Origin: Cycas panzhihuaensis
Taxonomy: Eukaryota; Plantae; Cycadophyta
Length of the DNA stretch: 64,000 nucleotides
NCBI GenBank assembly: GCA_023213395.1
Contig: CM041465.1
Span: 216,573,741 to 216,637,740 of the forward strand
Direction of reading: 5' to 3'
This document shows, piece by piece, positions 11,584-64,000 of the stretch. Position 1 is the stretch's first letter; every line of letters starts with the position of its first letter. Made by a program: the position numbers and the translations under genes. The notes below the pieces were generated by a model that worked only from the letters and a program-made list of their open reading frames with translations, had not been told where the DNA came from and ran no database searches.

Positions 11584-11584
11584 C

Positions 11585-32500: not shown

Positions 32501-35105
32501 TAGTAATGGGCATGGCTTGATATGGGGATTAGTTAGGTAATGATACACTGGGCAAGAGATCAATGGTATCTTAAATTGCTCTTGGAGGAGGTAACCCCTT
32601 TGGTATATTAAATATATCAGTATATACGTCTAAGATAGTATTTATTGTTACTAGTGGAATTTTATTACAATTGCTTATTTCTACTTGGCAAATGATATAA
32701 AGGGCCATGGATTTGGACATGTTGACTAACTTGGACATTTGATTGCCTAAAAGTAATGTCATGATGGTTTTCAATGGTATTGTTGCAGTGAGTTTGTATG
32801 CCTTGCCATCTTTGTGGATTGTATAGGTATTAAGATACCCATCATAGAGTACCTGTAATCATGCTGATAAGGTCAACTAAGGAGTAAATCATTGCAATCC
32901 ATTGGAGTTATCTTGTGGTTGATAGTATTTATAAGTGGCAATATGGCAAAGGTAACTGTGTAGATGCAGTTGATGAATGTAAGTTGTCCACTGCCAATGA
33001 CCCATCTGAGGGCATATGCCTACGGATGTGGCTTGGTGGGAAGTTGTAGAGTGTCTACCATCACTTTAAAAATTAAAATTTTCATGTTGTCATTATTTAT
33101 GATGTATAGTATTATTTTGTCTTTAATATGCCAATTATAGGTGAATATCTTTTCATGTTCTTGTGTCAAGTATTTTTTATCCATGAATACTAAGTTTAGG
33201 CTGGGTTTTTCTAGATTGGTGAGAGGGATGATCTCTGATTATGTTTGTTTACTTTGTGGTTCGATCATAAGCATCATTTTTTGTTGGGCCCTATATTATG
33301 CATATGTATATTTAGTGATCTTATGGAAAGAGCAATATTTCCTACTTATTGGTTGTAGTATATGTGGTGTTGTTTATGTTCTAAAAGAAGAAGAGGTTGT
33401 GGTGGCAAGACTTATAAATGGCTTGGGTCATTTTTACATTTTGGCTTCTATTTTGAGAGTAAATTGAAAAGTTGCTTTTAACGTTAGTACTTGAAGTAAT
33501 TCCATCTCTTATTATAGGTATGAATATAATCCTATAATAAATTTAAGTTTTAGGAGATGATTGGGGTCATTAACCTCTAGTCTAATGTAGAGCTTCAAGA
33601 ATTCATCGATGTATTATTATATTGATTGCCCTAATAATTGTCTATTGTGTAACCATCATTTTGTGAGGTTATCTAAGTACCTGAGGGATAAAAATGCCCT
33701 TTAATGGTCGATTTAAATGCTTCCCAAGTAAGAATCAGTTATTGCTTATTATATCCTTGCCACCAATTCAAAGCTTACTTGGACATATATACCTTGACTA
33801 TCATAAGTCTTTGTTGATCCGTTACTTATTGAGTTTTGAAGTAAGCCTCTAAACTCTAAAGCCAATCATCTAATTTATCCATATTTAGTGTTCTATTAAA
33901 AAGTGGAATAGATAATTTAGCATCTAGTTTAAATCATGGTTGTGATAGAAGAATTACCATAGGAGCTTGGTGGTACAATTATTCTTAGAATATATTCATC
34001 ATGCTGTTAACTAGGTTGTGTTGAAACATTTATGAATCTTACATTTGTTCCCATAGCTATTGTGCAAGCAGCTCAGAGAGGTCTAAGTGAGATTGTTCTT
34101 CTTGTTCATGAGACATCATTGGTAGGGTACACCTATCTAAGAAGGGATTATGGCAATATACCCACTAAATGATATTTAAAAGAGAGAAGATATATTTCTG
34201 TTAACTATTTACCTAGGGATGGACTGTATTGGTGAGTGATGGGCACTTAGGAACCACAAGGCCTGATATGAAAACAAAATAAAATAAGTCTTAAACCCCC
34301 CCCCCCCCCCCACCACCACCACCTTTTTTTTCTTTTCAATTCAATTAAAGTAATAAAACATTAGAAAGCTGAAATATTTTTCAACAATCATATGTGCCCA
34401 TGTGATTTAATATGGCTTCATGAGTAGATTTTAAGTGAACCAAACATTAGATTCCTTATAAAATTTATAAGTTACTCCATTAGGCCATGGTGATCAAAAT
34501 GAACACCCATATGTTAGGGTTTCGTGTGTTTGGGAGTGAGTGGTTGTAGTTCACATCATTTGGAAGTCATGCATTGACTAAGTAGATTCTAGCTCAAGTT
34601 CAACTGACTATAGATTGTATGGCAAGGCATTACAACTTGGTAATGGCATAGCCATATTTGAATACTAGTAATAGGATATCATTGGTATTTTCCATGCTTG
34701 ATGATGAATAAGGGCCATGATGGATGCAATAGTTAATACAAATATGGATCTTCATCATTGGCTATCGAAAGCCTACTTAGGAAAGTGTTGAGATGGATCC
34801 ACCAAACCTACCCAGAGGCATTGGGAGTAATGATAGAACTGAAGAAAGCATATACACTACCCCAAAAAAAATCTATCATAGTCAAAGCCCATGGATAGTA
34901 GGGCCTACATACAAAGAGAGAAGTGCCTAAATATAAATCATTATTAGTGATAGGAGAAATGGAGAAGGTGAACCTATAAGCTCTAATGCTAATTTAGTAT
35001 GAAGACACTAAGGGAAGAGAGAACAATGTAGAAATATGGAGTGTTATTCTATTAAATCTTTTAAGTATAAATACATAAGTGAGAGGTTCACATGATGGAC
35101 ACTTA
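29582..35105 (-). mobile_element. Degenerate chromovirus-like Ty3/gypsy element
   Basis: ~100-bp direct repeats at about 29590-29690 and 35010-35105; PBS-like TAGCATTAGAG at 34981-34991 on minus; RT CIEYRALNKLTLKNRYPLPCIDNLL...FSKIDL at about 32250-32380; GPY-like motif at about 30130 and chromodomain-like YLIGRK...AKWI at about 29860-29910. Confidence 0.8.
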
Positions 35106-36629: not shown

Positions 36630-39600
36630 CTATTACAACATAATAAGCTAGTGGAAGAATGAATAATCTTCAATATTATATTGATAAATTATATATACTT
36701 ATACAAACATTCATGTTTATAAGTCCAATCATCTAAGAGAATCGCTAACACATCTGATAAAAATTACATGAATAATTGTGAGCATTTACATACTTCTTGA
36801 TGGTTCTTATATTTTAATAATAATAAATATGAGAGAGTTGGGGAATTTAATTAAACATTAAACTATATAATTAAATATCATACTAACATTCTCTTTTGTA
36901 ATATTTAATTATATAAAATATAATAAATGTCACATACAAAATATATTAAATCTTCCTTTATTATACCAACATTCTCTTCTAGAAATTTTCAAGAGGTTTA
37001 TCTTCATGAGCAAACACCACTATTTTAAGTCATTAATTTAAACAACTTCATTTTTAATGGTTCTTCAATCATCAACTATTTACTAACATTTATATAAAGG
37101 ATCCACCATCTACTAGTCTACATGAGTAATTAACCTCTATAGTTGGTAGTTTACTAAGAGTTTTGTTTTTTTATATCATTCATTAATAATGATAATATTT
37201 AATACACTAAAGGAATAAGCTAAATTACCTCAGTAGATGAATATACTAAAAACACAAGAGTAACTTAAATATCCTACCTCTTAGGTATGGCATTCAACAC
37301 ATCAAGTGTTTTTTGGTGAAAAAATGTAGCTTTAACCATTGGCATTTTGTTGAAAATATAAGTCAATATGGAAAAGTAGCTTCAAACTCCTACCTTTTAT
37401 AAATGATCTTTAGGAAATATAAAAGAATAACTTGAATTGTGACTTTTTTTTTTTCTCTCTCCAAAAAATCTTTTGACTTCTCTATTTAAAAAATCTCAAT
37501 TCCCATGACATCAATCAACCTTTTAAAAAAAAACCCTAAGTACTATCTCTCTTTTGAGTATATTTTCCATAAAAGGTACATTTGAAATCATTGAGAAATG
37601 ATCATAGAGCTAATATTTTATTATGTTAATAAAAATATGCTCAATTTTTAAAAAAAAATTAAACCCATAAAAGAATTACCCACACTTATCTTAGTTTTGA
37701 CCTTAATATCTACTTTAAAAGTAAATCAAGTAGGTATATGTTACAAATCTTATCAAAGGTATTAAAATGAGTTATCTAATACATCTTTCCAATCTAAAAT
37801 CTGATAGCATATAAGGAAGTTATAAAGAAAATGATGAGTATAGGTGCTAAAAAATAAGTATTCAGCTAAAATTTTGGACTTAGCCTCTTTTATATTTGGT
37901 ATTTGGTTATCTAAAAAAAAATATATGACTATATGCAAGTATTATGGGATAGACTTGAAATTGGTTTTTAATTGGATTAATTTTTTGTAAACTTTACAAA
38001 ATATATAAATATATTTCATTATTTTTAATGTTTATAGATTATGACTTGTGACCTGTGTTTAAATTTGAGATCAACTTTTGATCTCTTTAAAATATGTCTA
38101 TAATAATTTTAGAAATATGATTCATAATGAACATCTACATCTATAGTTTACATATTACCATTCTTAAGCTCATGGATATGATGCTCACAGTCCATATTCT
38201 CAAAGCACTGCATAGCTCTTTGGGTGTCTGTACAACCACATTTTAAACATTCATTGCACCGATCTTCAACATATATACTTCCTTGGAATCTATACATAAT
38301 AATATATGAAGTTACTTTGTGATTATGTCTACTATCCACTCAACTTAGCATCAAGTATTTCATCTTCTCTTTTAAGTTCAGTCTGCATAATATTTGAACT
38401 AAAATGATCTTCTCCCTCATGGTTTCTCAACGTCTATATTTGATGCTCACTCAACCACTTTATCTCAAGGCCCTATCACATGCTTAAGCTTATTAAGATT
38501 TAGCATTTGATGACTTTGATCTAAATGGACTTTGTGCTAGGGATTTATCCCTAATTTCTATGTTCTTACATTCTAGAAAACTCACATTTAATATTCAAGA
38601 TTAAAGAAGGAGGTTTTGGCATCTCACTTTTAACAACTCTTCTTCTTAGGTTTTATGATCTTTAATAGATTTAGCACTTATTACCTCAAATATATTATAG
38701 CTTCTTTTTCTTATGTGGGTTTTTGTAGTTGCTATGTTTTCAAATATTTCAAAATTTTCCAAAAGATATAGGCATTACAAGTTAGTCACGTTTTTCATTT
38801 GGTGTAGGGTTTAGCCATTCCAAGATTCTTCAACTTCAATGATCATATCTCAATATGAAAAACCTTATGGGTTTTCTTGCTTGTTTTTTTATAGTTCTTA
38901 TGGCCCCTTTACATGCTATATGTTTTCATATTGTCTTGACTACAATTCTTAATTTATGGGTTTCTTACACTAAATATATTTGACATTATGAGTTTAACTT
39001 TAAAATACTTGTATGTTATATATGGGCATACCACATACATATATATTAGTATACTAAATTAATATTCAAGAACGATCTCATTGTTAATTTAAGATCTCAA
39101 CATTAAGGCTCTTTGTAGACTTCACAACACAATGCATGTAGCCATTATTTGTTAAATCTAATATCGATTAAAAATAAAAAAAACATGAAATCTTGAATTT
39201 ATGACCCTCACTTTAAAACCTATATGTAAAATTTTTTTGGGCCAACATGCATAATAATATGTCATAAAAATAATTTCTCAAATTATTTTAAAATAGCTAA
39301 GTTTAATATAGAATATAAATAGCTAGCTTCATCATAAATAACTTGCTCTAATTCATTTATTAGCTATATCAGACATCAACACAATAGCTTTTACCAAATG
39401 GTTCCATTGGCTCTTATATTTTAGGAATAAACCCTCAACTCTAATATCTCAAAAATAAACTTTAAATTATGATCTTTCAGGAATAAACACCCAACTCTAA
39501 TATTTTAGGAATAAATCCTTAGCTCTGATATGTCAGAAACAAACCCTTAGCTCTAATACCAATTATCAGGAATATAAGATGAGTAATAATACTCTAATAT

Positions 39601-39964
39601 TACTTGTTGGTTATAAAATCATCATTGACAAGACATTAGAATATGACTAAATATTTATGATGAAATATAAAGAAATATAATAAAAATTAAGAGAAATAAA
39701 GTATGCATAAAATCACAACATAATAAGTTTGTGGAAGAATGATCAATCTTCAATATTATATTGAGAAATTATACATACTTATAAGAACATTTATCATTTA
39801 TGAGTTTAATCATCTAAGAGAACCATTAACACATGTAATAGAAATTACATGAATGGTTTTGAGCATCACTTCTTCACGCTACTTACATTTTAATAATGAC
39901 ATATATAAGAGAGTTGAGGGATTTAATTAAACATTTACCTATATAATTAAATATTAGACTAATA
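36630..39964 (-). mobile_element. Highly decayed LTR element (aligned LTR cores about 36630-36888 and 39710-39964)
   Basis: ~260-bp diverged direct repeats (GTGGAAGAATGA...CTATATAATTAAATAT); GCTCTAATACCA (iMet PBS on minus) at 39550-39561; internal coding not recognisable. Confidence 0.6.
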
Positions 39965-45100: not shown

Positions 45101-48100
45101 CCTTAGGGAGGTCCACATGGTCACCAAGGTTGTTTACAACTTGGACCATTTTGAGAATGATGAGGCCATCCTTAGGTACTTGTGAGGTTCATCCCCTATC
45201 CTTTCTCCTAATTACCATAAGCTTGGTTTCTCCAAATTTATCTAGCTTAACTCATATCTTATAATTAGAAACCAATATAGCTCTAAAATTTTCCCCTCCC
45301 ATTGATCATACACCTCTTTATTTTAAGGAAGGCAAAACCATGCTCTTTAGTAAAACTAATGATATTGACTTGGAGATTGATGACTAGCCTATGATCATTA
45401 AAGTTGAGGCTAAATGTTCCCTAGATGAGATCCATAAGCTTAAAAATTTATTGAGGAAGCTCTTTTCAATTTTTGTTTAGGACTATAATGATAGGAAAGA
45501 GATGAACCTTGATGTGGTAGTCCATAACATCATAACTACCATTAAAGCTAAGCCCAAATACCAGAAATAAAGGTCTCTTGACCTAGACTTTTAGCTACTA
45601 TAAATCTAGAACTTATTGATTCCATTAACTATCTCAAGTGGGTTTCTAATATTGTTCTAGTAGTAAAAGAAATAAGGCATCCAAATTTGTATCAATTTTT
45701 GCAACATTAGTGAAATGTGCTTAAAGAATAACTTCATGTTACCCTTTATCTATTAGATCCTTAACTAAATAGTTGGCTTCAAAATCATGTCCCTTATGAA
45801 TAGGTTCTTATGTTATAATTAGATTACTATTTTTCTTAAAGATCATCATAAGACTATGTTCACTACACCTTAGGATAATATTACTTATAAGGTTAATTCC
45901 TTCATGCTAAAGAATATAAGGGCTACATACCAATGTAGGATGCAATATATCTTCCATGATTTAATTGACAAGATAGTAGTCATTTACATAGATGATATGC
46001 TAGGTCTTCCCAAGAGTAGGTGAGATCATATTCATGACCTCAAGGTCATTTTTAAAAGATGCCAAAAATATTAGGTTCACCTTAATCTCTATAAGTGTGT
46101 ATTTACCATCATTATATGCAAGCTATTATGGAATATAGTATAGAAGGAGGGCATTAAGATAGATCTTAAGAAACTAAAAACCATCATTAAATTGCCCTCT
46201 CTTAAGACCTAAAAAATAATTTAAGTCCTTCTTAGGAAAATTAGGCTTTCTATGTAAGTTCGATACAAACTTTGCTTTAAATGACAATTCCTTAACTAAT
46301 ATTTTTAAGAAGGGTGTGCCTCTCACCTAGACTCCTATAATCTAAAGTCATTTGAATGGTTGAAAGAAGGCATGATCTCTACACCAACTTTATACCTACT
46401 AAGATTTGACTAGCTTTTCATCTTATACATCTCATCCATAGAAGTATCACATCGAGGCATACTCACTTAAGAGGATGACTTCAACCATGAAAGAGTCATT
46501 TACTTCATTAATAAAACTTTAGTGGCTTCTAAACTAAACTATGCCATAGTTAAAAAATATAACCTTGATTTAATTTTTGCTACTAAAAAGCTAAGGCATT
46601 GTTTGTTAGGCAACATTATATGAGTCATCATCTAAATGGATCCTATCAAACTCCTACTCATGAAAATTAACCTAATAGGTAATGTTAGAAAATGGAACCT
46701 ATTATTATAAAAGTTTGAGCTAAAGGTAGTAAGTTAGAAATTCAAAAAGATAATGGTTATAGCTAAGTATCTTATGACCATGCTTTTACCTAATACTTTG
46801 GAAAGGACCCCATTGATCCTCTTTCTGATGAACATGTCTTTCATGTCAAAACTACTAAATACAAGTTAGGAAGGTACAAAGATATCATTTGTTATCTTAA
46901 GACTTAAACCTACTCTAAGGAGACCTCTACTAAGAATATGAATATTATTAAATCTTTAGTGTTCTATTACATTATCATTGGTGACATCCTATATAAATTC
47001 TTCTTTGATGGAGTAATGCTTAGGTGTCCCTTCTTCTCTAAGACTCAAACTGTCCTAAAAGAGTACCATGATAGAATATGAAAAGGGTATTTATAGGGCA
47101 ATCCATCATTTAAAGAAGTTTATAAATGGGCTACTATTATCCAACCTTGTTTAAAGATGTCCATGCATATGTTCTTAAGTGTGAGAAATGTTAGGACCGT
47201 GCTAACTTGATCTACTAGCTTACCACTTGCACGAGAGAAATTATATCTCCTTGGCCCTTTTCTTAATGGGGCCTAAACTTGATTAGGATGATCTGGCCTA
47301 CATTTATATGGGGACACAAATTCATCCTAACTACCATGAAGTACTTTACCAACTAGAGCAAGGACAACCCAGTGATCACCATTACTAGCAAGGTTCATGT
47401 TATGCTTATCTATCAACAAATAATTTATAGATTTAGAGTCCTTAATATAATTATCATAAATAAACATCCCCTTTTTTACAATAAGGATATTGATGAACTA
47501 TATAAAAATCCTCAATTACATATAAGATGTCTTATCCATACTACCGATAAGCGAATAGACACGTTAAAGCCTTTAGTAAGATCCTAGTAAAGATTCTATC
47601 AAAGATTATGTATGTGTCACATAGAGATTGATATGTTTAACTATATAGAATCTCAATTTACATAGTCACTGGAATGATACCTTTCTCTTTGGTATATATT
47701 ACTGAAATAATGCTTCCCTTAGAAATTAAGATCCTAACTCTTAAGATTTTGCTTAAAGAATTTATAAATAAGGGTTGAATCAGAGAAGCATAATTATTGG
47801 AGTTAGAGAATATGGATGAAATACTAGTTAATTCCTACCAATATAACCTTTCTTCCTAAAAGAAGACACAAGCTATATATGATAAAATTTTATAACCTAA
47901 GAAGTTTTGGATAGGTGAGAAGGTTCTCAAGTTAGAATAAATATGTTATAGACATCACTAATTCATGCCTAAATAGGTGCGAATATTTCTCATATTCAAG
48001 GATTTGAATAATAGGGCCTATAATGTATAAAGTATGGATAATTTAAGGCTTAAAAAATTGGTTAACTACTGATACCTCTAGAAGTATTACACTTAATTTG

Positions 48101-48109
48101 AAAGGAAGG

Positions 48110-48338
48110 CTCATCTCTATAATGAGCCTATACTTTACCTATACTCTAAAATGAACTTAAACTACACTAAAGTCTATAATGAGTATAAACTAATTATACT
48201 CTAGCACAAGTATAAGCTATTGCAACCACTTTGCAATAAGTATAGACTTACCAAACACCTCCAGAAGTTTAAACTAGGTAATACCCTTTACAATGAGGTT
48301 AAACTACAACTCCCCTCAAATGAATAACTTGGGGGCAC
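48110..48338. repeat. Degenerate ~28-bp tandem repeats downstream of integrase
   Basis: Recurrent CTCTATAATGAG.ATAAACTA-like units ending at TTGGGGGCAC. Confidence 0.5.
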
Positions 48339-48520
48339 TTAACTCTATAATAAATATAAACTAGATAGTTCTCTAAACCATGGTGAGCTTAGTCTATAAT
48401 TATTCCTTTTTATTGTAATAAACTGAAAAAAATTAATATTTATGATATTATATATAATAAGGAGATAAAGGGATAAGGTGAGAGATATTTTTATACAACT
48501 TAAACTGATATGAGAGAATG

Positions 48521-48591
48521 AATATATATATATACATATATACATACACACACATACACACACACACACACACACATACACACACACACAT
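48521..48591. repeat. (AT)n/(AC)n microsatellite
   Basis: Directly visible. Confidence 0.95.
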
Positions 48592-49229
48592 AATAAAATT
48601 TTGAGTATAGCATGAATACATTAATGTATGGTCCCAAAATTTCCATGGGCATCAACAATGCTTTAGTAAGTCACTTTCCATACTCATGGAGTGGACACAT
48701 ACTTTGCTAAGATTATCCGCTTCCCCCTACTCCATTATTCGTTACTCCTATAAGTATTCTATTCTAGGGGTTTATCCTCTCTTATACCATTATTTCCCTA
48801 AGCCTTAGGAGATCTCTAGACTCCTTTGTTTAACTTTCAGCTTAAGCTTTGGGAGTTGTTGCTTTGTCTCACTAACCCTCTAACTAGTGACTTGAGAAAA
48901 TCCCTCTCAATCTCCAAATCTCATATCCACACCTATAACTCCCTCTATTTGGCTCAAATAACAAGCATAATATACTTTATTTATCTTCCCAAAAAGTAGG
49001 TTAACCCTCAATTTACATAAGAGGCATCCACAAACCATAGATAAATGGGAAGATCACATTGAGTGCCTACCATATGAATGTTCCCCACAATAATTCATCA
49101 CCTATAAAGGGCAATAATAAGTGGTAATTAGTTTATATCCATATAATATTCTCAAATCATAAGTAAATAACTAGAAAGAAAAACTAATAGAAAGTAATAC
49201 AAATAAAAAATAATAAGAAATAGCTCACC

Positions 49230-50173
49230 CTTGTTATCAGAGTCACTCCACATGATGTTATGATGATTAAAGGAGGAAAGGGAGGCCTCTAAAGTAATGA
49301 CCTTATGCCAAACCTTGTGTTAGTCCCCTCCCTTATTCTATCTATTTAGGTCATCATTACATCTACTAGCCATTATAACTACCCCCTATCCTCATTAGAG
49401 TCCCATCCAATCCCTATATATGGCTCATGGATATAGTTGGATAGTTTGAAGCATTCCAGGTCAATGGCATCTATTAATTAGGGCCTCACCTCATCATGTT
49501 GGTATACTAATAATCCTATATGCCACGTATTCATTATCTTATCAATGTGCCTAACTTTCCTATTTCCTCCTCTAAATGAATAAGAGGGAAGTGGTCAAAC
49601 ATCGAGTTTATTAGGATGGAGTAGTATGAGAAACCCTTGTTGCCTCTACTCCAAATGTTGGATAACTAGCCTATCATATTAGAGATAATGAGCAAGTTCT
49701 TATCATATCTCCTCTCTCACTTATACTACCTAATGAATGATACCAATCCCCTTGGGATACCTAAATAGTTCTAGGTCTTAGATATCTTAAAAATAATGAC
49801 TAGTACAATGACCTTCCACATTAGAGGGACCAATACTACATCTCTAATTATAGCCAATTAAAATTTTATAGGAGGTCCAATCTAATATGTGCTCACCTTA
49901 GCCTTAGTACTATTTGGGGGTATTGATAAATTTGCACACTCTATCCATAGTAAGACACTCCTAGGGTCTTCTTGATATCTCATGATATAATATGTAAGTC
50001 CCCAAGGGCCTTAAACTTGAATACTCTCACACTAGGCACTTAATGCCTCACTAGGTCCATAGTAGATGTATATCCATGGTGAGTTGGATGAAGTGGTATG
50101 CCTACAATAAACCATAATGGCATAAAACTTTGTAGTCTCCATTTATCAATATATCTAAGAGGAGAGTCAACAT
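49230..50173 (-). pseudogene. Decayed antisense PMD-like gene of the old Tat element
   Basis: Minus strand DIHLL/MDLVRH*VPSVRVFKF.../DLHIIS*DIKKTLGV and WKVIVLVIIFKISKT*NYLGIPRG...ISNMIG*LSNIWSRGNKGFSY align with the young element's DQRLLVDIVSHW..VFHL..DITITPGDIRRILGV and RKLILLCIQFQISQKQNYREIPGG...AANLVAQLDTIRRSG*GGFSY. Confidence 0.75.
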
Positions 50174-50402
50174 GCACTTTGCATTATTAAGGCTTTCAAT
50201 CTATGTCAATATTTACAAAGTAATAAGAGTATTAAAGTTTATATATTTATTATTACAAATAGTAATAATAATAATAATAATTAACTCACTATGGTGCCAT
50301 ACTATGATATTTGTTGGAGTTAATCGTCATCACTCTACTCCTACCTTCCAACTAAGATTGTATACCTCATCAACCTTATTTTACACATGTGGGTGCTCAA
50401 CA

Positions 50403-50796
50403 TGTGTAGGTAAATTAAGCTAAGTTAATGTTAATTTGAGTTAGTTTCATTTGAGTTAAGTTAGTATTATTTTATTGTTAATTTAAATTACAGAGGTTGA
50501 GGAGTTTCTCTCCTCCCCCAAAATTTTAAATATTGAGGGGTGTGCAACCCTTGTGTCTTTAGACACTGCCCTCATTTGAGAAATTTGTAATGCTCACTTC
50601 TCACAATGGCTTGAATACAATGCTTTCATGGTTTATACTACATTGCAACATCGATGTATTGAAGATTTGTATTATTGTATTGATCTATTGAAGTTTATTC
50701 TATGTTCTGCCCTATTCTCCTACTCTATTATTTTTTCAACATTTGGTATCAGAGCTACTTGGGGCTCCATTCTATTTCCAACATCTGGTATCAGAG
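50403..50796 (+). mobile_element. 5' LTR (about 50403-50741) with duplicated iMet PBS
   Basis: TG...TCAACA followed by TGGTATCAGAGC (50744-50755) and a second CCAACA-TC-TGGTATCAGAG (50786-50796); no partner LTR in the window. Confidence 0.65.
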
Positions 50797-51042
50797 TGGA
50801 TGATTACTGGTCTATTGAATTTTTTTCAAAGAAGCAAGAAGATTTTGAGGCAGATTTACTCAATGAAGCAAAATATTAGTTATACTTATTTTCTACACAA
50901 TTTTTTTAGCAAGTTTCTTATATTGTTTTATTAAGATTTACTTATTATTAAGTTATATTTAATAAATAACAGGGATATTTTAGATTTTTTCATATATTTA
51001 TGCAGATTTGTGAAGGATTTCAGTAGCAAGCCATATTTATCC

Positions 51043-51737
51043 AAGTTTTTTCTCAGATTTGAGCTATATTTCTTTAGATCTATATTTTTTATCATATATT
51101 TCACCATTTTTTTGTAGATTCTTGTCTATATTTCTAGATCTACGAAGGAGATCAATAGATTTCAGCTACAAGCTACATTTTTTTAAAGATTTGTGAAGGA
51201 TTTTTAGCTACCTGCAAGATTTATACAAGTTTTCTTCATATTTGTGATATATTTTCTCATATCTATATTTTGTTGTCAAATATTTGGCAATTTTCAAGTA
51301 GATTTCTGTCTATTTATCCTATATTTTTTTAGATCTGTGTAGGATTATAGCTACATGCAATATTTACTTAAGTTTTTCTTAGATTTGAACAATATTTCTT
51401 TAGATCTACATTTTTTTATCATATATTTCACCATGTTTTGGTAGATTCTTATTTATATTTCCAGATCTACAAAGGAGATTAGTATATTTTAGCTATAAGC
51501 TATATTATTTCAAAGATTTGTGAAGGATTTTCAGTTGCATGCAAGATTTATACAAGTTTTCTTCATATTTGTGATATATTTTCTCATATCTATATTTTTT
51601 TATAAAATATTTTACATTTTTCAAATAGATTTATGTCTATTTATCCTATATTTTTATAGATCTATACAGGATTGTAGTTGCATGCAATATTTACTTAAGT
51701 TTTTTCTCATATTTGAGCTATATTTCTTCAAGATCTG
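51043..51737. repeat. ~328-bp tandem duplication (about 2.1 copies) built of AGATCT/AGATTT sub-repeats
   Basis: AAGTTTTT(T)CT.A.ATTTGA...ATATTTCTT.AGATCT recurs at about 51043, 51370 and 51698 with colinear sequence between. Confidence 0.8.
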
Positions 51738-52697
51738 CCTTATACTTTTCAGATATGTTATACTTACATCAGATCTATAATATTTAGCTTAAATCTGTAA
51801 TATTTTTTAAAGTTTTCTTTAGATCTATTATGTTCTCTTTCATATCTAAATTTTTTCATTATATATTTGATGATATTTTTTAAAGTTTGATACAGATCTA
51901 TATTTTTTAGGCATATTCAGCCTTCTAAAAAAGCTATACAATAGATCTCATCTCTGCAAGTCTACAAATCAAGCTACATTACCAGGTTTTTTCAATTTCA
52001 TTCTCAGATTTAAGCATATAAATACATTTTATTTTTTTATGATATATATGCTGCAACATATTTGAAAAAGCTTTAGATACAAATATATATACATATATTT
52101 TTCTTTAATATATCTAAAATTTTCTAGTTCATTTGTGCTCCATTGAATTAACAAAAAAAACTCAATATTATTTTTATATTCTCTTTGTATAAATATATGA
52201 TTTTTTTAAATATTTATGAGAATAGAGGTATAAGTATAGCATTAATAGGGTCAATGTAAGCAAGAAATAACTAGAAAATAATACTGCACAAGTACACGTC
52301 AATTAACAAGTGGAAAACCCCTTCTGGGGAAGAAAAACCACCTCCTAAATCTAATTCATTAATAAAGAATTAAAACCATGATACAAAACCACCAACACAA
52401 AACCAACCTTTAAACAGGTATTTGGATAGCCCTTCTAGATTCCTGTAACCATCTCCATGAATCTAGGAGATAAATAAATACTACGAAGGTTCGTTAGAAT
52501 ATAGTTCTGTATTTCAACGACCATCCATAAATTAATAAAATAAACATAAATTTAAACATTAGAATCACTTAAATTATATATAAGACATGTGACTAAATAA
52601 TAACATTAAGAAACATAAAGCTTATATTATATCATCTAACATCCTAACATCCCCCTTTAATGCAAACTTTTGTACTAGAGAGAAAAGAAGAGCTTCA

Positions 52698-55600
52698 TCA
52701 CGGTGATCCCCCTTTGATGGAGACTTCTTTTATCTGTAATAGATCTTTGAGGTTCAAGAATTTAACTTTAGTTAGAGACTTCATAAGAATGTTAGCAATA
52801 TGTAGATCTGTTGCACAATAAGACAAAGAAACAAGATTATCAATAACTAAATTACAAATAAAATGTTGATATAATTCAATATGCTTAGTCTTAGAATATG
52901 AAACTAGATTTGTAGCTATAGCAATTGCACCTTGATTATCAACTTTAATTTCAATTGAAGAGTTTAGAGACAGACCAATTTCATTTAGTAAAGATTTTAG
53001 CCAAAGTGCTTCTTTACCAACCTCAACTAATGCTTGATATTCAGCTTTAGTCGTTGATAACGCTAAGGTCGATTTTTTCTGCACCAAGTAATAGGTGAGG
53101 AATCTATAAAAAATACATAACTTAAAGTAGATTTACGATCAAATATATCACCTGCCCAATCAAAATCAGTATATCCAGTTAACATTAGTGGTTTATTACA
53201 AAAATTATAAGTTAAACCATAAAATACAGTATGCTTTAGATAACATAAAATACATCTAGCAGCTTTCTAATGAGATTCGTGTGGTTATTGCATATAATAA
53301 GAACATAAAGCAACAGCATAAGAAATTTCAGGGTGGGTGTGAGTAAGATAGATTAGACTACCAATGAGTTATATGTATAGAGTTGGATCACATAACAGAG
53401 TTGGACAATCAGTAGATAGTTTAACTCCTGATTATAATGGATTTATTACGGGTTTAGCATTTTCCATGTTAAACTACTGAATTAAGTCTAGAATATACTT
53501 AAGTTAAGATATTATTATATTTGAATGATTTTGATAAACTTGTAAACCAAGAAAGTAATGTAATAGACCTAAATCAGTCATTTCAAATTTGTTCATTAAA
53601 GTAGATTTTATATGATGAATATTATGAGTTGATGATCCAGTAATGATAATGTCATCAACATTGAGGATTAGAATAGTAAGATTTTTATTTTCACATTTAA
53701 AATAAAGATTTGGATCACTAATACATCTAGTGTACCCAATATAAATTAAATAATCATCAACTTTAGTATACCAAGCTCGAGGAGCTTGTTTTAAACCATA
53801 AATGGATTTTTTAAGTTTACAAACTAAATTAGGATTTTTAATAAATCTAGGTGGCTATGACATATAGATCTCTTCTTTAAGATTACCATTCAAGAAAGCA
53901 CTCTTAACATCTATTTGGTGTATTTCCCAACCAAACTTAGCTGCAAGAGTAATAATTGTCTTGATTGTGTTCATCTTTGCAACGTAGGCAAAGGTTTCAT
54001 TATAATTAATGCCATCTATTTGAGAAAATCCTTTGGCAATAAGGCGAGCTTTATATTTTTCAACTGCACCTGTTGAGTTATATTTAGTCCTATAGACCCA
54101 TTTACAGTCAACGACATTTTTCCCGAGTGGGAGAGGAACAAGATCCCAAGTTAAATTTTTAATTAAGGCATCAAATTTAGTTTGCATAGCATTCTACCAT
54201 ATATAATTGTTTCTAGCTTGTTTGAATGTTTTGGGATTATTGTTGTCCATTATTTTTACCATTAAGGTAAAATTAGCATATAGTTTTTATGCACGTGTGC
54301 GTTTGGTATCAGTAGGATTACCCACATCAGATCCAGCATCAGCAAGCATTTTGGTTGCCCAAACAGGTTACTTGTGAGTAACTGTATCTGAAGATGTAGG
54401 TTGATTTGATGAACTAGCCTGAAGGGAAGGATTTGTTTCAGTGGGTTCAGATAGAGTCTAATTTTGGACTTAAGTTGATAAAGATTCTATAACTTCTGAA
54501 TCAACTTATTTATCAGAAGGGTCAACCAAACAAGTGTTGGTTATTTTTAACAAGAAGTTCTACATAAGTAGATGTTGAAGAAGATCCTTCTTCATCAAAG
54601 ATTACATCACGCAAAATAGAAATATGATGCGTGACTATATCTAAGAGTCTATAAGCTTTACTCTCTTCGCTATACCCAACGAAGATGTATTTTTGACTTT
54701 TTTTTATCTAATTTTTTACGTTTTTCGTGAGGGATATGTCCCCACGTAATACTGCCAAAGATTCATAAATGATTGACAAATGGTTTTCTTCTAGACTATT
54801 TTTTTTCTAGAGTAACGTTCTGTAGACATTTACTAGGTAAACGATTTAATAAATAATTAGAGTAGTTAATTGCTTCTACTCATAATTTTAAATCTAGATT
54901 TTTTGCATGTAATATGCAACGAGTCATCTCAACCAGAGTATGGTTTTTGCGTTCAGCAATATTATTTTGTTGAGGTGTGTAAGCAACAGAATGTTGGAAC
55001 CAAATTCTGTGTGATTTACAGAAAGAAGTAAATTTTCCACTTAAATATTCCTTAGCATTATCATATCGAAATATTTTGATTCTTGAATTTGATTAATTTT
55101 CAACTAATATTTTATATTCAACGAAAATGTCAAACACTTAACTACGTGTTTTGAGCATATAAACCCAACATTTTCTTGAATAATCATCTATAAATGTAAT
55201 AAAATAACGAGAACCTGAGTATGATGTTACATGAAAGGGTCCACATATGTCAGAGTAGACAAGTTCGAGTGGAGCAGTTGCTCCGTATTGAGTTTTATGT
55301 GGAAATGGTTCTATGTGTTGTTTGCTTATCACACAGACTTCACAAACACAATAAACAGTGTTTAAGGGTGGTAAACCATGAACCATTTCATGCTTCTTTA
55401 AATATTATAGTTTGCCATAACTTGTATGGCCAAATCTTACATGCCAAAGTTTGCTGATTGAGTCAGATTTAGTAATAAAGGCACTAAAAGAGTTTGATTT
55501 GTTATTTTGAAGACTGGTTAGACTATAAAGACCTATGTTATGATCAACAGATCCTGAGGCAATATGTCTGAATTTGTTTGATGGTTCCTTTATGATAAAT

Positions 55601-56913
55601 TTATTTTTCTAGAATTCGATGACAAGGTCTTTCTAGTAGATCTGATAGACTGAGAGTAGGTTTGGTAACAAACTAGGTACGTAAAAGACGTCCTTGATTG
55701 AACCATCTTTTAGAATAACATCACCAGAGCCTTTGACTTTAAGTTGATTACCACTTCCTAAAGAAATCTCTTCTTCAGAGTTCGTATCGGATTGATAAGT
55801 GGTTAAATTTTTCTAGTGTCTAGTCATGTAATAGGATGCACTAGAGTCAAGGATCCACTGTGGTGGTTGATTTGAAGGAGCAACAAATGCAGAAGTTGTT
55901 GCTACTAAAGAACGATTATGGGATTTACGATTTTGGGGTCTTGATTGAGAATGGGATTGAGGTTTATTTTGCAATCACTTGGAAGCTTTCCATACTTCTG
56001 AAGCTATTCTACTTCTACAGACATCAATAGTATGGCCTCTTTTATGATAATAGGCACAACTAGTGTTCTAAGAAGAAGTTGCATTGTTCCTATTAGAAAA
56101 TAATTAATTAGAAGTATTCTGGTGTTTAGTTGGACCAGAATATTTAACATTGTTTTGTGAATTAGATGGTGAACCTCTATGAGGTTTCTGAAATTTTGGA
56201 TTATTATGAAAATTGTTGTTCTATTGTTTGTTTTTAAATTGTGTCTTAGTTTTAGAAAACAAAGCCTGTGAAGGATCTTTTAATGCACCTGTTTAAATTA
56301 ACATTGTCTGATGTTCAATCAGCTGGTTTGTCATCTGATTGAATGTTATAGATGGGTTGCCAGCTTGTTATCTGGCAATTTTGAAGAGATTAAAGTGTAT
56401 TGGTAGTTTGTTTACTGTAAGACGTATGAGCGTATCGTCATCTCTAACATGCGTAGTTATTTTTTCAACATCACCTTCTTTGGTTTTAGATTTGATGTAG
56501 TTATCTAGATCTTTATTAATTGATTAAATTTTAGTTAAAAAATCCTCAACATTTGAAAATTCATCAAGAGTCAGGTTATACAATTGTTATTCTAGGACAG
56601 CCACTTGATGTGTATCAACCTTGTCATATTTTTCTTGCAAGGTTTTCCAGACAGTGGCTAAGTCATTTTTTTTAGAAAACTGCTGACTGATTTTTGGTGA
56701 GAGTGAGTTTAATATGGTGCCTAAGGCAGCATCTGAGTTTATCAGATATACCATAAGACTCTCAGTAGCATCTGCTTTTGGTTTTTGAAATTCACTTGTC
56801 ACATATCGCCATATCTTTTGCTGTTTAAGCTGATGGGATATGTGATTACTCCAATCGGCATAGTTTAAGCCTGTTAATACTGGAATTGGAATGCAGGTGA
56901 CTATCCCTGGCAT
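52698..56913 (-). pseudogene. copia gag-pol polyprotein (gag, PR, INT, RT, RNase H), many stops
   Basis: LTGLNYADW (gag), WILDSSASY (PR), LELVYSDICGP..FITFIDDYSRKCWVY (INT), KYKARLIAKGFSQ..HQIDVKSAFLNG (RT), ALSTTKAEY..DNQGAI..TKHI (RH). Confidence 0.93.
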
Positions 56914-57119
56914 TAATGCTATATTGGGAGTATTGAGGTTTGATTGTAGATTGAAGATTTATGAAGGTGATTGGAAAAATAATCACTTAGTAAAAAATAC
57001 TAATCATGTTAATAGATATAATTCAAGAAGGTATTCTAGTATGCATTAATTGTATTTACGAAAAAAATCATGTGTTTGTAAACAGAATGAATAAATAAAC
57101 AACTTCTTAAAACGTTGCT

Positions 57120-57945
57120 TTAAGCAATCCCTTTTTGATAAATAATTCTCTTAGAGAAATAGCCCCCCTTTGATAAATAGTCCCCCTTTGATAAATAAAT
57201 TAGTTGTCCTTACTCTAATGAAAAGTCCTTGGTTGATTAAAACAGTTCTTAAAAAAATTCTATATTCTTAAGCAAATAGTCCCCCTTTACTTGAAAAATA
57301 ATTAGTCCCCCTTAAAAAGTTAGTCCCCTTTAATCTTACAAATAAATAGTCCCTTTCAAAATAAAGAATCCCCCTTAATTTGAAAAATAAACAATTCCCC
57401 TTAAAAATAAGTATTCACTTAAAAAGGTTTAAGTTCCAAGAATATTAATAAAGTGTGAAATTAAAGTAATTAATTATCTTTTGAAATTGATTTTGTTAAG
57501 TGCTTTAAGATGATAATAATGTTGAAGATGTAAAACTAGTATATAAAGATGCATTTGGCCAAAAAAAAGTCTATATATACATTATCTAAAAAACATTATA
57601 GTAAGGAGGAGTTAAAGGGGAGGAGATTTTGTTTATATATTAATTATAATAGATAAATTAATCTTTAACAATAAAGTGTGAAGGGGGGTTTTGATTAAAT
57701 TTTATAAATCAAAAGGTAATAAGTAAGCGGGGGTATTTGATTATATCAAAATATAATAAGGGAAGGGGTGGGGGGGGGGGGTGTAGATTAAATTAAAATC
57801 AAAACATGATAGAAATGGGAGGGTGTATTTGATTTAATCTAAATCAAAGTGTAATAAAGAGAGGGGGTGTTTGATTTAATTTAAATCAAAGTGTAATAAA
57901 GAGGGGGGTGTTTGATTTAATTTAAATCAAAGTATTATAAAATGT
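57120..57945. repeat. Repeat arrays in the copia leader: AAATAGTCCCCCTT units and 40-bp G-tract/palindrome units
   Basis: About 9 TCCCCCTT-containing units at 57120-57410; GAGGGGGTGTTTGATTTAATTTAAATCAAAGTGTAATAAA-type units at 57820-57945. Confidence 0.75.
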
Positions 57946-60269
57946 TTAATTTTAACATTAGAATGTAGTGATAAGAGGGTTAAGTTTAATCATTAAAATG
58001 TAATAGGGTGGCAGAGGGTTTATTTTAATTACCCTAAGGTTGATTAGTCTTATAAATATATATATATATATATATAGAAGGGGGAAGGCTTTTGTTTTAT
58101 TTAAATAAAAAATGTGATAAGAGGGGGGGGGGGGGGCGGGGGTTAATGTTTTATTAAATCAAAAACTTAAAAAGAAAAATTAAAAATCTAAACCTAAATG
58201 GGAGGACCCAATGGAATTATAAATTAATAAAAACAAAATCAAAAATAAAAAATGTTTAGGATCCGGGGGGGGTTAGGTTTTTTTAAACCCTACCTCTTTT
58301 TCGCAATGGCCGACGATGCTCCTTTCTCCTTTCATTATAGGTCTGCAATGGTGTCGATGAGAAGGCTTCATCACCAAGTAGTTCAAGGATGTCTGTAGGT
58401 CGATGATGTTTGCAGGTCGCCTAAATCTTTTAATCATCACAAATGACTCTAGAGCTGCAACTGTAACGAGAAAGAATCCTACGACAACAGCATGCCCAAT
58501 GTTCCAGTTCCTTCGTGGTACTAGCACAACCCTAAATCTTCATCCTCCTTCAAAATTTGGTTGTTGGTTCTATTCATCCATGCTTAACGCAGGCTTGTTT
58601 CCACTCTGGTCACCGTCTTCTTCTTGTTCCAGTTAGTGGAGACTCACGCACCTCCTCAGCCTTTATTTATGTCTACAAATCTCCATCCCCGCTGACTTCT
58701 CTCTTTACAAAAAAAGCTCAAACCAATGGTGGTTTTGGTTGCTGTTTGGTTCTCATAGCAATATCTCACTCAATCTTCCTTCGCGGGATCAAAGATCAGT
58801 GCCCAAAAATTTCCCTATTCGTATATTGAGACCGAGGAGAGACCAAGACGAAGGAATCATTTCGTAGTTCTAGTGAGGGCTTTAACTCTATTTTATCTTG
58901 TAATTTTTTATAGTGGTAGAGATTCTTACATAATGTTCTAACAGAATCTTGGTGCTTTGTGTTATAGATTAAGATCTTTGTGATGCAGTATTAGAGAATA
59001 GTTCTGGCATCCTTTATCAATGGAGTCCTTTGTCATGTGTCCCTACAAGCAACTTCAAGGCATGCTTGTCTGCATTTGTGTATGTATAATGGAGAGCAGC
59101 AATGGCTTTCTCACTTTATATTTCAGACAGGGCTACGTGCAGACATTTTCACACAAAAATTTTCTTTTCCTTATATGTAGAGAGATGCATACGCGCTTAC
59201 AGGCATGTCCTAGATTTTGACATCAAGGTCGAGGTTGGGCAGAAGAGTTGTTGAGTAGCTTAGAGGAAAGACTTTTAAACCTTGCTCAAATGCACTAGTC
59301 TTCAGTGTCTTCTGAAGTCCTGTAGAGTTCTACCACTTTAGTTCCATAAAAGGATCACTCCTCTAATGCAACAACATCAGAAAATCCCAAGCAGATCATT
59401 CCTCAAGTCCTGCTCTGATTCTATGTGAGAGAATAGAGGCACAAGTACAACATTAACAGGATCAATGTAAGCAAGAAATAACCAAAAAATAACACTATAT
59501 AAGTACACATCAATTGACAGGTGGAAAACCCCTTCTAGCGAATAAAAACCACCTCCTAAATCTAATTCATTAATAAAGAATTAAAACCATGATACAAAAC
59601 CACCAATACAAAAACGGCCTTTAAACAGGCATTTGGACAGCCCTCCTAGATTCCTGGAACCATCTCTATGAATCTAGGAGATGAATAAATACTATGGAGG
59701 TTTGTTGGAATGCAGTTCTGCATTTCAATGACCATCCATAAATTAATAAAATAAACATAAGTTTGAACATTAGAATCACTTAAATTACATATAAGACATG
59801 TGACTAAATAATAACATTAAGAAACATAAAGTTTACATTATATCATCTAACATCCCAATAATATTACATCATTTACAAAAAAGGGGGAATATAATAACTT
59901 ATTGCATGTAGATATAGATTGTACAAGGCTCTGTATCCTAAAGCATAGCATACAGAATTTTGAATCTTTCTTTTAAAGAACCTAATTGGCAAAGAGGTTC
60001 TCCTTCTTATTGTTCTTAAACAAATCTGCTTCATTCAAACAGCTACTCACCCAGTAACTTTTATGGGGGATTAGGATTGTTCCTTCGATATACTAAAGTC
60101 ATATTTAAACCAATCAAAATATTTGCTATAATAAACAAAAAAAACTTTTGACAACTTAATTTTTTTAAACAAACCCCATCATTTGGTGTCCAACATTCAA
60201 GTCTCATCCTCAATAGAGAGGATAACAAAACCTCCTCTATCACATCATACATACGTATTGCACTAACTA

Positions 60270-60530
60270 GGTGGAGAAAGGAAAATATTTCTCTCCTAGA
60301 AGTCTTTAACAGTCTTCTTTTATCCCTGCAGAATCATTTCAAACCTTTTCTTAAGTGTCCATTAAGTGTCAACCTCTCTCCATATTCCTTTAGAGTATAC
60401 AGAGGCAAATGAGACTCACTTAACCAATACTTGTTCCTACAATCTAGAGCCTCTCCAAGTCTATCTCCATGCTTGGTAATGTGTGTTAGAAATTTTCAAC
60501 TATTTTTTATTCTTTAGAACAAATCTAAAC
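60270..60530 (-). pseudogene. Fragment resembling DDT/PHD-domain PTM-like chromatin protein
   Basis: RNKYWLSESHLPLYTLKEYGER resembles the KYWL.E.Y(V/I)PLYL.KE(F/Y)EE motif recalled from PTM-family proteins. Confidence 0.5.
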
Positions 60531-60600
60531 CCAAAAACCAAGTGGGTATGGTGTTATCCACCGGGACCAAGTGAGTGGAATAAACCGAGAGCAAATATCA

Positions 60601-61328
60601 ATCCAAATCTTTCCTATAAACAATTGAAATAGGGACATTTATTCCATCATAAGCTACTGCCCATTTTCAAATGGTTTCATATTTCTCCTCATCAAATCCT
60701 CCCAATACTGGTTAAACCTTCTTTAGAATTGATCTGCCACTATCCATATCATAGTCATAAATAAATGAGGGTGTGTGTAATGAGCTATACTCATATCATA
60801 ACACATGAGAATTAAATTATGATTTAATGCATGATATGGAATATACAGGATCAATAAATTAAATAATCTGGCCACTTGAAAGTTTTTTAATTACTTCTCC
60901 TATAGGTGGAAGATGATAAACGATTATTTTTGCTAATCCATTTTCACGCTCATATACAACTAGATGATCCTTGAATGCATGCACCTCAATTTCACACTTG
61001 GCCTGTGATGAAGCAACACAGTTATAGTAGTTACATCATCTATAAAGAAAACAAGTAACTCAAAGTTGAAAACCTTAACACTTCTCCTTTTAATGAAAAA
61101 GTAGTCCCCCTGATGACTTCCTTCTATGTCAAATCCCTCAACACACGAGGTTAAGTACATCAGTTCCTTGTGTGCATCTGAAACTTTTACAAAGAGAACG
61201 AAGCTTGTAGTTTTATTCCCAGAAAGAACAAATAGGTATTACTGGATTTCTGATGCACAATGCCCTAAGCTAAATTTATCATCATTTTCATGATACAGGC
61301 AAGTATCATGAGACTGTTCTGAACCCAA
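60601..61328 (-). pseudogene. Intronless internal fragment of oligopeptidase B / protease II (prolyl oligopeptidase family S9A)
   Basis: LGSEQSHDTCLYHENDDKFSL..YLFV...SHQGDYFFIKRRS...TVLLHHRPSVK..FKDHLVVYERENGL..FIDPVYS...IYDYDMDSG...VLGGFDEEKYET.*KWAVAYDGINVPISIVYRKDL. Confidence 0.88.
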
Positions 61329-61329
61329 A

Positions 61330-61635
61330 TAGTGTTGCCAACAAGCTCTTTCAGCCTAATAACACCTTTGGTTATATCTAATAGTACATGGTTAAATGTA
61401 CGATAAATATCTAACACAACACGCTTAACAAGGTTACCTCTTTACCCCATCGTTCTCTCGCAAAACCAGCCAGAGACATCACAAGCATCCTTCAGAACCT
61501 GCTTCCACTCCCCTACTACCTCTGTGCCGTGTCTGTCGTCAGTTGAATGTTTTTTTGAAAAGCATTCGCATATAACCCTGAATCGTGGTTTCAGACATTG
61601 GGTAGGTGCATGCCATAAAATAAAAAAATAATTGA
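61330..61635 (-). pseudogene. TIR-domain fragment of a TIR-NBS-LRR-like gene
   Basis: LFY...YANAF.KH...EVVGEWKQVLKDACDVSGWFCERTMG*.GNLVKRVVLDI...LDITK matches the TIR C-terminus and TIR-NBS linker. Confidence 0.75.
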
Positions 61636-61644
61636 TCCTATGGA

Positions 61645-61850
61645 TTTCCACATCTGAGAGATCTCTCTGATTCTCATTCCTTGATGCTAGAAGATCACCC
61701 AAATCCGCACGGAGATCCTCTTCACACGATTCAAGACCATTCTATAGACAGTTCCCTTCATCTGCCTTGAGGAGTGTCACTACTCTAGGCATCCGTGTCT
61801 CTGTGCAGCTCCCACAGTGTGATAGGCTACCTGCAAGCCGTGACAACGTC
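61645..61850 (-). pseudogene. Possible receptor-like kinase C-terminal fragment
   Basis: LQVAY.../RMPRVVTLLKADEG resembles the RP.M..VV..L end of plant RLK kinase domains. Confidence 0.4.
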
Positions 61851-62682
61851 TACACATTCATGGCACTCAAGGCACCTTGCTATTTTTAAATTTCTTTTTT
61901 TAATTTTTACATAAAGTTTTAAAAATTTTAATTAAATTTGATATTTTTTTAAAATCTGGGTTTAAAAATTTTTAACCCCTTTTAACCATTAACCCTTGGT
62001 CACAAGACCCTATTATGTGACCATTAACTATTATAAAAGACGTCAACTCATTTTTCATAAAACTTTTTCTTTTATTTTTTTAATTTTTTATTTTTACATA
62101 GGGTTATTGACAAATTTTTTCCATAACTCCTCACTGAGTTATCAATTTCTGACGAAGCCAAATTTATTGAGTTAAAATTTTTCGTAGATCAATTTTAACT
62201 GGTCATATGACCAATTTGATGCTGATTTGACCCCGTTTCAGTCGATTTAAAGTCAATGAGTCCTTTTTTCAGTCTTTTTTAAACTTTTTATAAAATCACT
62301 TTTTGAATTGATTATATTTTATTACTGGGAAATTATTTTCTACCTTGATTTGTTCGAAAGTGATCTACGTTCAACAAACTTCATTACCCACCTTTTATTT
62401 TATTTTTTAGACTTCATTTTGATCATTATTTTGATTGCCGAAAGTGGCACTTTAATGTTTTTTAGCCTTTTTCTTAACATTTTACCATAAAGGTACCTAT
62501 TGCCATTTCTGTTATAACTTCTCTATTTGGCATCCAAATTTAGTTCCGTTAGTTTCGTTGGGAAGCTAACTCATTCCCCTTCGAACTAGCATAGGTTTTT
62601 ATATGTTTTAAGGTGTTTTTACTCATTTTCAAATCCATTAAAAGGGAGGTACTTAATAGCCTCAAATCTACTATTTTTACAC

Positions 62683-62684
<2 letters not shown>

Positions 62685-62767
<83 letters not shown>
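62685..62767. repeat. (TA)n microsatellite
   Basis: Directly visible. Confidence 0.98.
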
Positions 62768-62770
<3 letters not shown>

Positions 62771-63824
62771 AAAAAAATTTAGCTAAAAGTATATTGAGCA
62801 GTCCTCTAAATAATATTTAATCATATTTCAGAATTCTATAAAGTTTTATTCACATTTTTATAAGTTTTTGAGCTCTCTGCCCCTGTTAGGCCTCAAAACA
62901 AGGTATGTTCCTTTGATTTATTAAAACTTGACTTGTGTGAACTTGTTTTTAAAACGGTCAATTTCGTTGGATTCATGTTTTATTAATCTTTATGCTGGTG
63001 AAGTTTCACCTTATTTTGATATCGTTTAGTATAGCTTTGAAGATGCTAAACTTAAGAACTTGACATAACCTTACATTTGAAAAATCAAAAGGTTAAAAAT
63101 TTTTATTATTTTTTATCATTAAATTCTTATTTTTAGATTCGCATATTTAAAAGGATTTGTTACATTCAAATTTTCTCATATATTTATTATATTTCAAAAT
63201 TTTATTTGAAATTATACCTTATAAGGTTATACACTTATTCAAAGGGCATACACATTGAAACATTTATTTCCTTATTGCACCTATAAAGATTGTATTTACT
63301 TCATTTATTTTTAAAAGGTATTATATCTCATTCAAAAAATTTATTTGAAATCATATATGTTCATTGATTTATTGACTTTTTGACTTAGTAAAAGGATACA
63401 TTTTATGTACTAAAGTTCTTTGATAAAATGACATAATTTCCTATATTCAATGGGCATAAATTTTCACAATGATATAGGACTATGCAAGACTATTTTATTG
63501 AACATGATCTTTTGAAGTATTCACAACATGTGATCTAATTATTAAAGAAAATTTTAGAAAGGACAATGAAACGTTAGGTATATTATTTTGTACTATGACT
63601 GGTGATATTTTTTCAAAGGTTTCTGAATTAACAACTTCTAAATCAGTTTAGGATGTATTGATTTTTATTTATGGGGGAAATACCCTCCATGTATTTGATG
63701 ATATTTTTGATGAGCATGTGAGACAAGTGACAGAACATGTGAATCATAATGACAACACCTATGAAGATTCAGATCAAATGCATGACCAACTTGCTATATA
63801 AGTGCATGATCCTCCATTTGAGGG

Positions 63825-63896
63825 GGAGAATGAATCTTATGACATGATGGAGAATGAATCTTATGACATGATGGAGAATGAATATTATGATATGAC
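63825..63896. repeat. 24-bp tandem repeat x3 (GGAGAATGAATCTTATGACATGAT)
   Basis: Copies start at 63825, 63849 and 63873. Confidence 0.9.
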
Positions 63897-64000
63897 AGAA
63901 AAGAGACTTAATGATATAACAGTCAAAGTTAAATTTCTATAAGATAAAGTCAAAGTTGTAGCTATTCTTTTTTGTACAAATCAAGCATCATTTACTTACA

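What the first reader, a model, noticed from the sequence alone, without database searches (positions are those of the whole stretch)
60270..61850. Second chimeric string of host gene fragments (kinase-like, TIR, oligopeptidase B, PTM-like), all on one strand
Seen: four coding pieces abut within 1.6 kb on the minus strand, with a sharp TIR-linker to oligopeptidase junction at about 61329; the oligopeptidase piece covers ~240 codons with no intron. Inference: another multi-gene capture; the carrier may be the element whose LTR/PBS lies at 50403-50796 (split by the copia) or an unrecognised DNA transposon. A TIR fused to a foreign domain illustrates a route to integrated-domain NLRs.
Basis: partly seen in the sequence, partly recalled or inferred. 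Interest (0 to 1): 0.72.

Follow-up and report, generated by a model that had tools for sequence, protein, structure and literature searches.

The report
Dead string of captured plant genes
This gymnosperm DNA is a broken chain of pieces from several unrelated host genes (half of an immune-receptor TIR domain, a peptidase, a PTM-type regulator, and probably a calcium sensor), found in many diverged copies and likely stitched together from RNA by a jumping gene; this is a known, common process and the chain makes no working fused protein.

Summary
The string is real. Three pieces are confirmed on the minus strand: the second half of a TNL TIR domain plus linker (61671-61346), oligopeptidase B (61340-60601, about 248 codons, 69-72% to gymnosperm proteins) and a PTM chromo-like piece. 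The 'kinase' piece got no database support. All pieces carry stops or frameshifts. Contigs from four public runs show many diverged versions and bridge three junctions, so this is a multi-copy family, not one gene or an assembly error. The TIR piece reads straight through the likely TIR/NB intron site, where two other contigs break off; this favours an RNA template. The oligopeptidase's lack of introns is not shown to be informative. No carrier end was found, and the LTR/PBS at 50403-50796 points the opposite way. The TIR is half a domain, has no NB-ARC and is out of frame with the peptidase, so it does not illustrate an integrated-domain NLR. Best reading: a decayed Bs1-like multi-gene retro-capture. 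The scan noted an analogous single-gene capture in a fish genome, but no look-alike of this stretch.

The parts
61675..61880 (-). Piece 1: GC-rich (50%) unidentified fragment; resembles a kinase C-terminal motif by eye only (recalled motif)
   Evidence: No hit; not the TIR first half. X1 record 8 follows it to 61664 and then diverges; X1 record 6 and X7 record 32 bridge it to the TIR piece.
61341..61671 (-). Second half of a TNL TIR domain plus the TIR-NB linker; frameshift in the A-run near 61552, 2 stops
61442..61446 (-). Likely joined TIR/NB exon boundary (phase 2 in a Gly codon); the window reads through with no gap against the TNL proteins
   Evidence: X1 record 4 (95 loose letters) and X7 record 31 (25 loose letters) break off at 61442 and 61443; conserved phase-2 TIR/NBS intron in PMC3352924; exact codon of that intron recalled
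61335..61340 (-). TIR/OpdB junction with a 6-nt overlap; out of frame
   Evidence: X1 record 2 follows the TIR side to 61335, then 206 unlike letters; OpdB homology starts at 61340; frames 1 and 2; bridged by X7 record 28
60601..61340 (-). Oligopeptidase B (S9A) beta-propeller fragment, about 248 codons, frameshift near 60986, 6 stops
60245..60600 (-). PTM-like fragment (chromo-like domain at 60486-60370); left end inferred from other copies that hold 35 letters where the window has 4
   Evidence: Pfam PF24294; table 5c; OpdB/PTM junction bridged by X3 record 20
60030..60244 (-). Unassigned sequence shared with many other copies
   Evidence: X7 records 25 and 26, X11 records 9 and 10; no PDB hit for 60090-60268 in one frame
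59979..60023 (-). Probable calcineurin B-like (CBL) fragment of 15 codons; below formal significance
   Evidence: Only PDB hits are Arabidopsis-type CBL2 chains, E 0.24-0.28, 11 of 15 identical; other copies read a sense codon at the stop at 59984
52215..59860 (-). Later copia insertion, LTR pair K2P 0.115, 5-bp target duplication
50403..50797 (+). Candidate LTR with two iMet PBS motifs (50744, 50786); opposite in orientation to the string; link unproven
61881..62684 (.). AT-rich flank upstream of the string, ending at a (TA)41 tract; no PBS, TIR or Helitron end found

Best explanation
The stretch is a decayed copy of a multi-copy chain of unrelated host gene fragments, likely built by a non-autonomous LTR retroelement whose reverse transcriptase is inferred to have jumped between co-packaged host mRNAs at short matching sequences. 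The chain was then likely re-amplified as non-coding cargo, and copies diverged by deletions and stops. SHOWN: identity of three pieces, one strand, broken frames, many versions in related species, three bridged junctions, the later copia insertion. INFERRED: intron loss at the TIR/NB boundary, microhomology switching, and the LTR nature and minus orientation of the carrier, whose ends are not in the window or are unrecognisable.
For: Family: 335, 551, 74 and 35 contigs laid from four runs, of which 269, 405, 63 and 33 are under 95% alike; one run alone shows 11 contigs at OpdB place 61246, two different 4-letter insertions at 60986 and three deletion joints near 61051-61145. Junctions bridged with at least 31 letters each side among the 32 rows shown of 1007: piece1/TIR 2, TIR/OpdB 1, OpdB/PTM 1. 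RNA template: two contigs from two species labels break at 61442 and 61443, where an intron start would fit, and the window aligns ungapped to TNL proteins there; X1 record 4 has a net length that would keep the TIR frame, as a donor-type gene would. Microhomology: 6-nt overlap at TIR/OpdB, the median length in PMC5131818. Cargo: five of the TIR-spanning rows share the window's length across the A-run frameshift. Local precedent: a complete LTR pair at 4689-8903 with PBS carries sense-strand exportin-1 (147 contiguous codons) and ceramidase pieces.
Against: No LTR, PBS or PPT in the minus orientation flanks the string. The loose letters of the two breaking contigs were not displayed, so the intron is inferred from position only; one of them (X7 record 31) is itself out of frame. 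No donor gene was obtained: the metagenome scan gave 80 loci, none a plant gene with introns. OpdB gene-model breaks cluster outside residues 216-545, hinting at one long exon, though the hits were ranked on that region. The CBL-like match stops at a GT that could be an intron start (by eye; CBL exon structure recalled), which would point to DNA-level capture. No listed contig spans the whole string.
Confidence: 0.6

Rival explanations
1. A DNA transposon (Helitron, Pack-MULE or Pack-CACTA) collected the pieces from genomic DNA; the spliced TIR junction came from an older retrocopy or is a misreading.
For: Same-strand chains are typical of Helitrons (recalled); all major TE superfamilies capture exons in gymnosperms (PMC13477047 section 12); OpdB may lie in one exon; possible intron start after the CBL-like piece; AT-rich flank beside a TA tract.
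Against: No Helitron-type hairpin plus CTRR end on either strand in 48000-64000, no CACTA/TAGTG pair around the string, no 12-mer inverted repeat between the flanks; two contigs break at the TIR/NB intron site.
Confidence: 0.22
2. The plus-strand LTR element starting at 50403 is the carrier and holds the chain antisense, its 3' LTR lying beyond 64000. This is a variant of the best explanation.
For: Removing the copia joins the string to that element's AT-rich interior; contigs in X1 and X7 run left past 59888 into letters that loosely resemble the rejoined flank (13 of 16 AT-rich letters by eye).
Against: Opposite orientation to all identified pieces, unlike the sense cargo of the 4689-8903 element; no partner LTR in the window.
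Confidence: 0.13
3. The pieces are one genuine, now pseudogenised fusion gene (for example kinase-TIR or TIR-peptidase), or an assembly chimera.
For: Copies with 8 extra letters near the piece1/TIR junction would put one reading of piece 1 in frame with the TIR (one chance in three); the second OpdB frame and the PTM frame coincide.
Against: Every piece is an internal fragment; none of the 21 TIR-search hits has a kinase or peptidase domain; none of the 120 OpdB hits lists a TIR or PTM family (near lengths only); TIR/OpdB is out of frame; junctions recur in independent runs.
Confidence: 0.05

Closest known systems
Maize Bs1 and LTR-mediated chimeric retrocopies, including the mouse 'Super' retrocopy of four genes (PMC5131818; passages read)
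   Same: Partial pieces of several unlinked genes in a chain, short overlap at a switch point, copies sharing switch points, likely secondary amplification.
   Different: No flanking LTRs found here; old and broken in every frame; no expression shown.
TE gene-fragment capture in gymnosperm giga-genomes (PMC13477047; abstract passage, passages and section 12 read)
   Same: About 400,000 captured coding fragments per genome; 13.68% of host TEs on average hold two or more. This string fits that class.
   Different: Four or five donors in 2 kb is at the rich end; that survey's BLASTN cut-off of 1e-40 would likely miss short old pieces like some of these (inference).
NLR retroduplication inside non-autonomous LTR elements in pepper (PMC5664825; passages read)
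   Same: NLR-derived, likely spliced sequence as mobile cargo.
   Different: There whole NLRs under purifying selection; here 110 codons of a broken TIR.
Integrated-domain NLRs (PMC5819176; passages read)
   Same: An NLR piece lies next to a foreign domain.
   Different: No NB-ARC or LRR, half a TIR, out of frame; that study judged retrotransposition of integrated domains unlikely.

Membership tests
LTR-mediated chimeric retrocopy (Bs1 type) | Partial fragments of two or more unlinked host genes | tested here: met
   TIR, OpdB, PTM; linkage of donors not checked
LTR-mediated chimeric retrocopy (Bs1 type) | Loss of donor introns | tested here: inconclusive
   One boundary supported by contig break points; no donor gene seen; OpdB uninformative
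LTR-mediated chimeric retrocopy (Bs1 type) | Microsimilarity at switch points | tested here: inconclusive
   6-nt overlap at TIR/OpdB, but three X11 contigs suggest the window junction is a later 24-nt deletion; about 8-12 nt of overlap between records at piece1/TIR; donors not in hand
LTR-mediated chimeric retrocopy (Bs1 type) | Flanking LTR pair with PBS, PPT and target duplication | tested here: inconclusive
   None found inside the window, which ends 2.1 kb upstream of the string; no genome held
LTR-mediated chimeric retrocopy (Bs1 type) | Further copies sharing the switch points | tested here: met
   Bridging contigs 89-95% alike in runs X1, X3, X7
Helitron | 3' hairpin plus CTRR end | tested here: not met
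   None in 48000-64000 by a perfect-stem scan; a decayed or out-of-window end is not excluded
Pack-MULE / Pack-CACTA | Terminal inverted repeats around the cargo | tested here: not met
   None within the window; an end beyond 64000 is not excluded
Integrated-domain NLR | NB-ARC (plus LRR) in the same gene | tested here: not met
   TIR homology ends at the linker
Integrated-domain NLR | In-frame fusion to the foreign domain | tested here: not met
   TIR and OpdB frames differ; 24 extra letters in other copies would not change this
Protein kinase fragment (piece 1) | Significant match to a kinase family | tested here: inconclusive
   No hit; about 35 degenerate codons may be below detection

The most novel reading that the evidence does not exclude
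This lineage hosts old non-autonomous LTR families that serially collected five or more spliced mRNA pieces, including TNL immune-gene pieces, and spread them to many copies kept across several species; with two such chains in 64 kb they would be a genome-wide source of small RNAs that silence the donor genes, TNLs included, and an occasional source of new in-frame fusions.
Probability: 0.15. Interest if true: 0.6.

Novelty: new member of a known kind. Interest (0 to 1): 0.3.

Why it matters
It is a clear example of how giant gymnosperm genomes fill with shuffled host-gene fragments, and a warning for annotation: such chains can inflate counts of TIR-only and 'integrated-domain' immune genes. 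A family with copies in different states across species could date the order of captures. The process itself is established, so the gain is incremental.

Tried and rejected
No whole genome was held, so copies and junctions could not be counted directly. No RNA holder listed; this says nothing about expression. Parts without contig cover are not used as evidence. PDB searches of the TIR region and the first OpdB frame were blank. The PTM homologue search was blank, 0 of 34 candidates. The protein atlas gave no result, so piece 1 stays unidentified. The metagenome scan for a plant OpdB gene with introns gave 80 loci, 79 unsplit and one tandem-like, none useful. A search for a paper giving OpdB exon structure found none among 10 listed. 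Piece 1 as the first half of the TIR: rejected. A plus-strand G-alpha match at 59887-60055 (E 0.006, 16 bits against a cut-off of 48.8): rejected as the likely antisense shadow of the minus frame, since chance hits of that size appear in the same scan and the stop is a sense codon in other copies only on the minus strand. The purine run at 59877-59889 as a PPT for the 50403 element: no matching LTR follows. Rfam gave only two microsatellite-driven matches below gathering score, outside the string. Earlier-findings look-ups by sequence and by place were empty. Paper searches for cycad or Ginkgo TNL intron structure and cycad chimeric retrocopies listed nothing describing this family; only listings and abstract starts were seen, and no supplements were read, so tables of PMC13477047 may already include it.

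Full report
Setting. The window is AT-rich, retroelement-filled plant DNA. The best protein matches are Ginkgo, Taxus and Cryptomeria, and runs under several species labels hold parts of the stretch, so a gymnosperm with several close species, such as a cycad, is likely (inference). No genome was held.

What the pieces are. Read on the minus strand: an unidentified GC-rich piece (61880-61675); the second half of a TNL TIR domain plus linker (61671-61346; profile positions 78-189 of 193; 30-44% identity over the main stretch to the hits); oligopeptidase B (61340-60601; Ginkgo residues 282 to about 529, 69% in the first frame, and 70-73% in the second frame for three unnamed proteins); and a PTM-like piece (Pfam Chromo_PTM, E 2.9e-8). 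The kinase label found no support, though the piece may be too short to detect. Matched frames hold 2, 6 and 4 stops in TIR, OpdB and PTM and two frameshifts.

It is a family, not a gene or an artefact. Contigs of four runs were laid at 80% likeness on 59880-62040 (about 46% of X1 and X3 was read; 32 of 1007 piece rows were shown). Most are under 95% alike. One run shows 11 contigs at a single OpdB place, two different insertions at 60986 and three deletion joints, more than a diploid single locus would give (inference; depth was not used as copy number). Rows bridging with at least 31 letters each side: piece1/TIR (X1 record 6, X7 record 32), TIR/OpdB (X7 record 28), OpdB/PTM (X3 record 20). 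Three of the window's stops fall on listed places where other contigs read a sense codon, and five rows share the window's length across the TIR frameshift, so some decay predates amplification and some is private. No row spans the whole string.

RNA or DNA template. TNL genes have a conserved phase-2 intron between TIR and NBS in moss and angiosperms (PMC3352924, passages); its exact codon is recalled, not looked up for gymnosperms. The window aligns without a gap across that site, while X1 record 4 and X7 record 31 break off at 61442 and 61443 with 95 and 25 unlike letters; an intron beginning GTA would extend the match to just those places. A rough chance for two breaks within 2 nt of a fixed site is 2e-4, optimistic because the site was noticed afterwards. 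The loose letters were not shown. No plant OpdB gene with introns was recovered. Against a pure RNA route, the CBL-like match ends at a GT that may be an intron start.

The TIR/OpdB junction. TIR-side likeness runs to 61335 (X1 record 2) and OpdB starts at 61340, a 6-nt overlap. Three X11 contigs carry further OpdB-like codons upstream, matching the H-x-P-x-K-V of the homologues, preceded by letters resembling the TIR side; the window's junction is therefore probably a later 24-nt deletion between short repeats (by eye). Either way the fusion is out of frame.

The carrier. The copia at 52215-59860 has a 5-bp target duplication, LTRs 0.115 apart and gag-pol domains, so it inserted later. Removing it joins the string to the AT-rich interior following the plus-strand LTR/PBS at 50403-50797, but that element points against the pieces and has no partner in the window. 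No minus-strand PBS or PPT, Helitron end or inverted repeat flanks the string. The element at 4689-8903 is a complete LTR pair with PBS carrying sense-strand exportin-1 and ceramidase pieces, showing that LTR-borne multi-gene capture happens in this genome; it shares no sequence with this string beyond the PBS.

Comparison and verdict. It works like Bs1 and the four-gene 'Super' retrocopy (PMC5131818, passages); membership rests on LTRs not seen here. Capture of gene fragments is massive in gymnosperms, with 13.68% of host TEs holding two or more (PMC13477047, section 12). The integrated-domain reading fails on frame, completeness and the missing NB-ARC, and runs against PMC5819176 (passages). 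Verdict: real, a new member of a known kind, interest 0.3; RNA-mediated capture by an LTR element of either orientation about 0.73, DNA capture about 0.22.

Noticed in passing
window 4689-8903 (+): Complete non-coding LTR element (LTRs K2P 0.16, iMet PBS at 5052) with sense-strand exportin-1 N-terminus (147 contiguous codons, about 6271-6711, E 3e-24) and a ceramidase piece (about 7696-7797, E 5e-8); 5060-6250 may hold further pieces. A cleaner capture case than this finding.
   Followed up: partly
window 50736-50797 (+): LTR end plus PBS is doubled at 42-nt spacing, followed by AT-rich 327-nt tandem repeats (51043-51736).
   Followed up: partly
window 9030-25578: Young GC-rich LTR element with 2.5-kb LTRs (K2P 0.044); not examined further.
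   Followed up: no
window 63580-63900 (+): Acidic coding-like stretch with a 24-nt triple repeat; no credible Pfam hit.
   Followed up: partly
window 201-524 / 2194-2522, 29584-29687 / 35002-35105, 36632-36886 / 39712-39962: Further old direct-repeat pairs, likely LTRs of small decayed elements.
   Followed up: no
window 61904-61955: Short AT-rich motif laid by very many contigs with unrelated flanks; probably low complexity.
   Followed up: no
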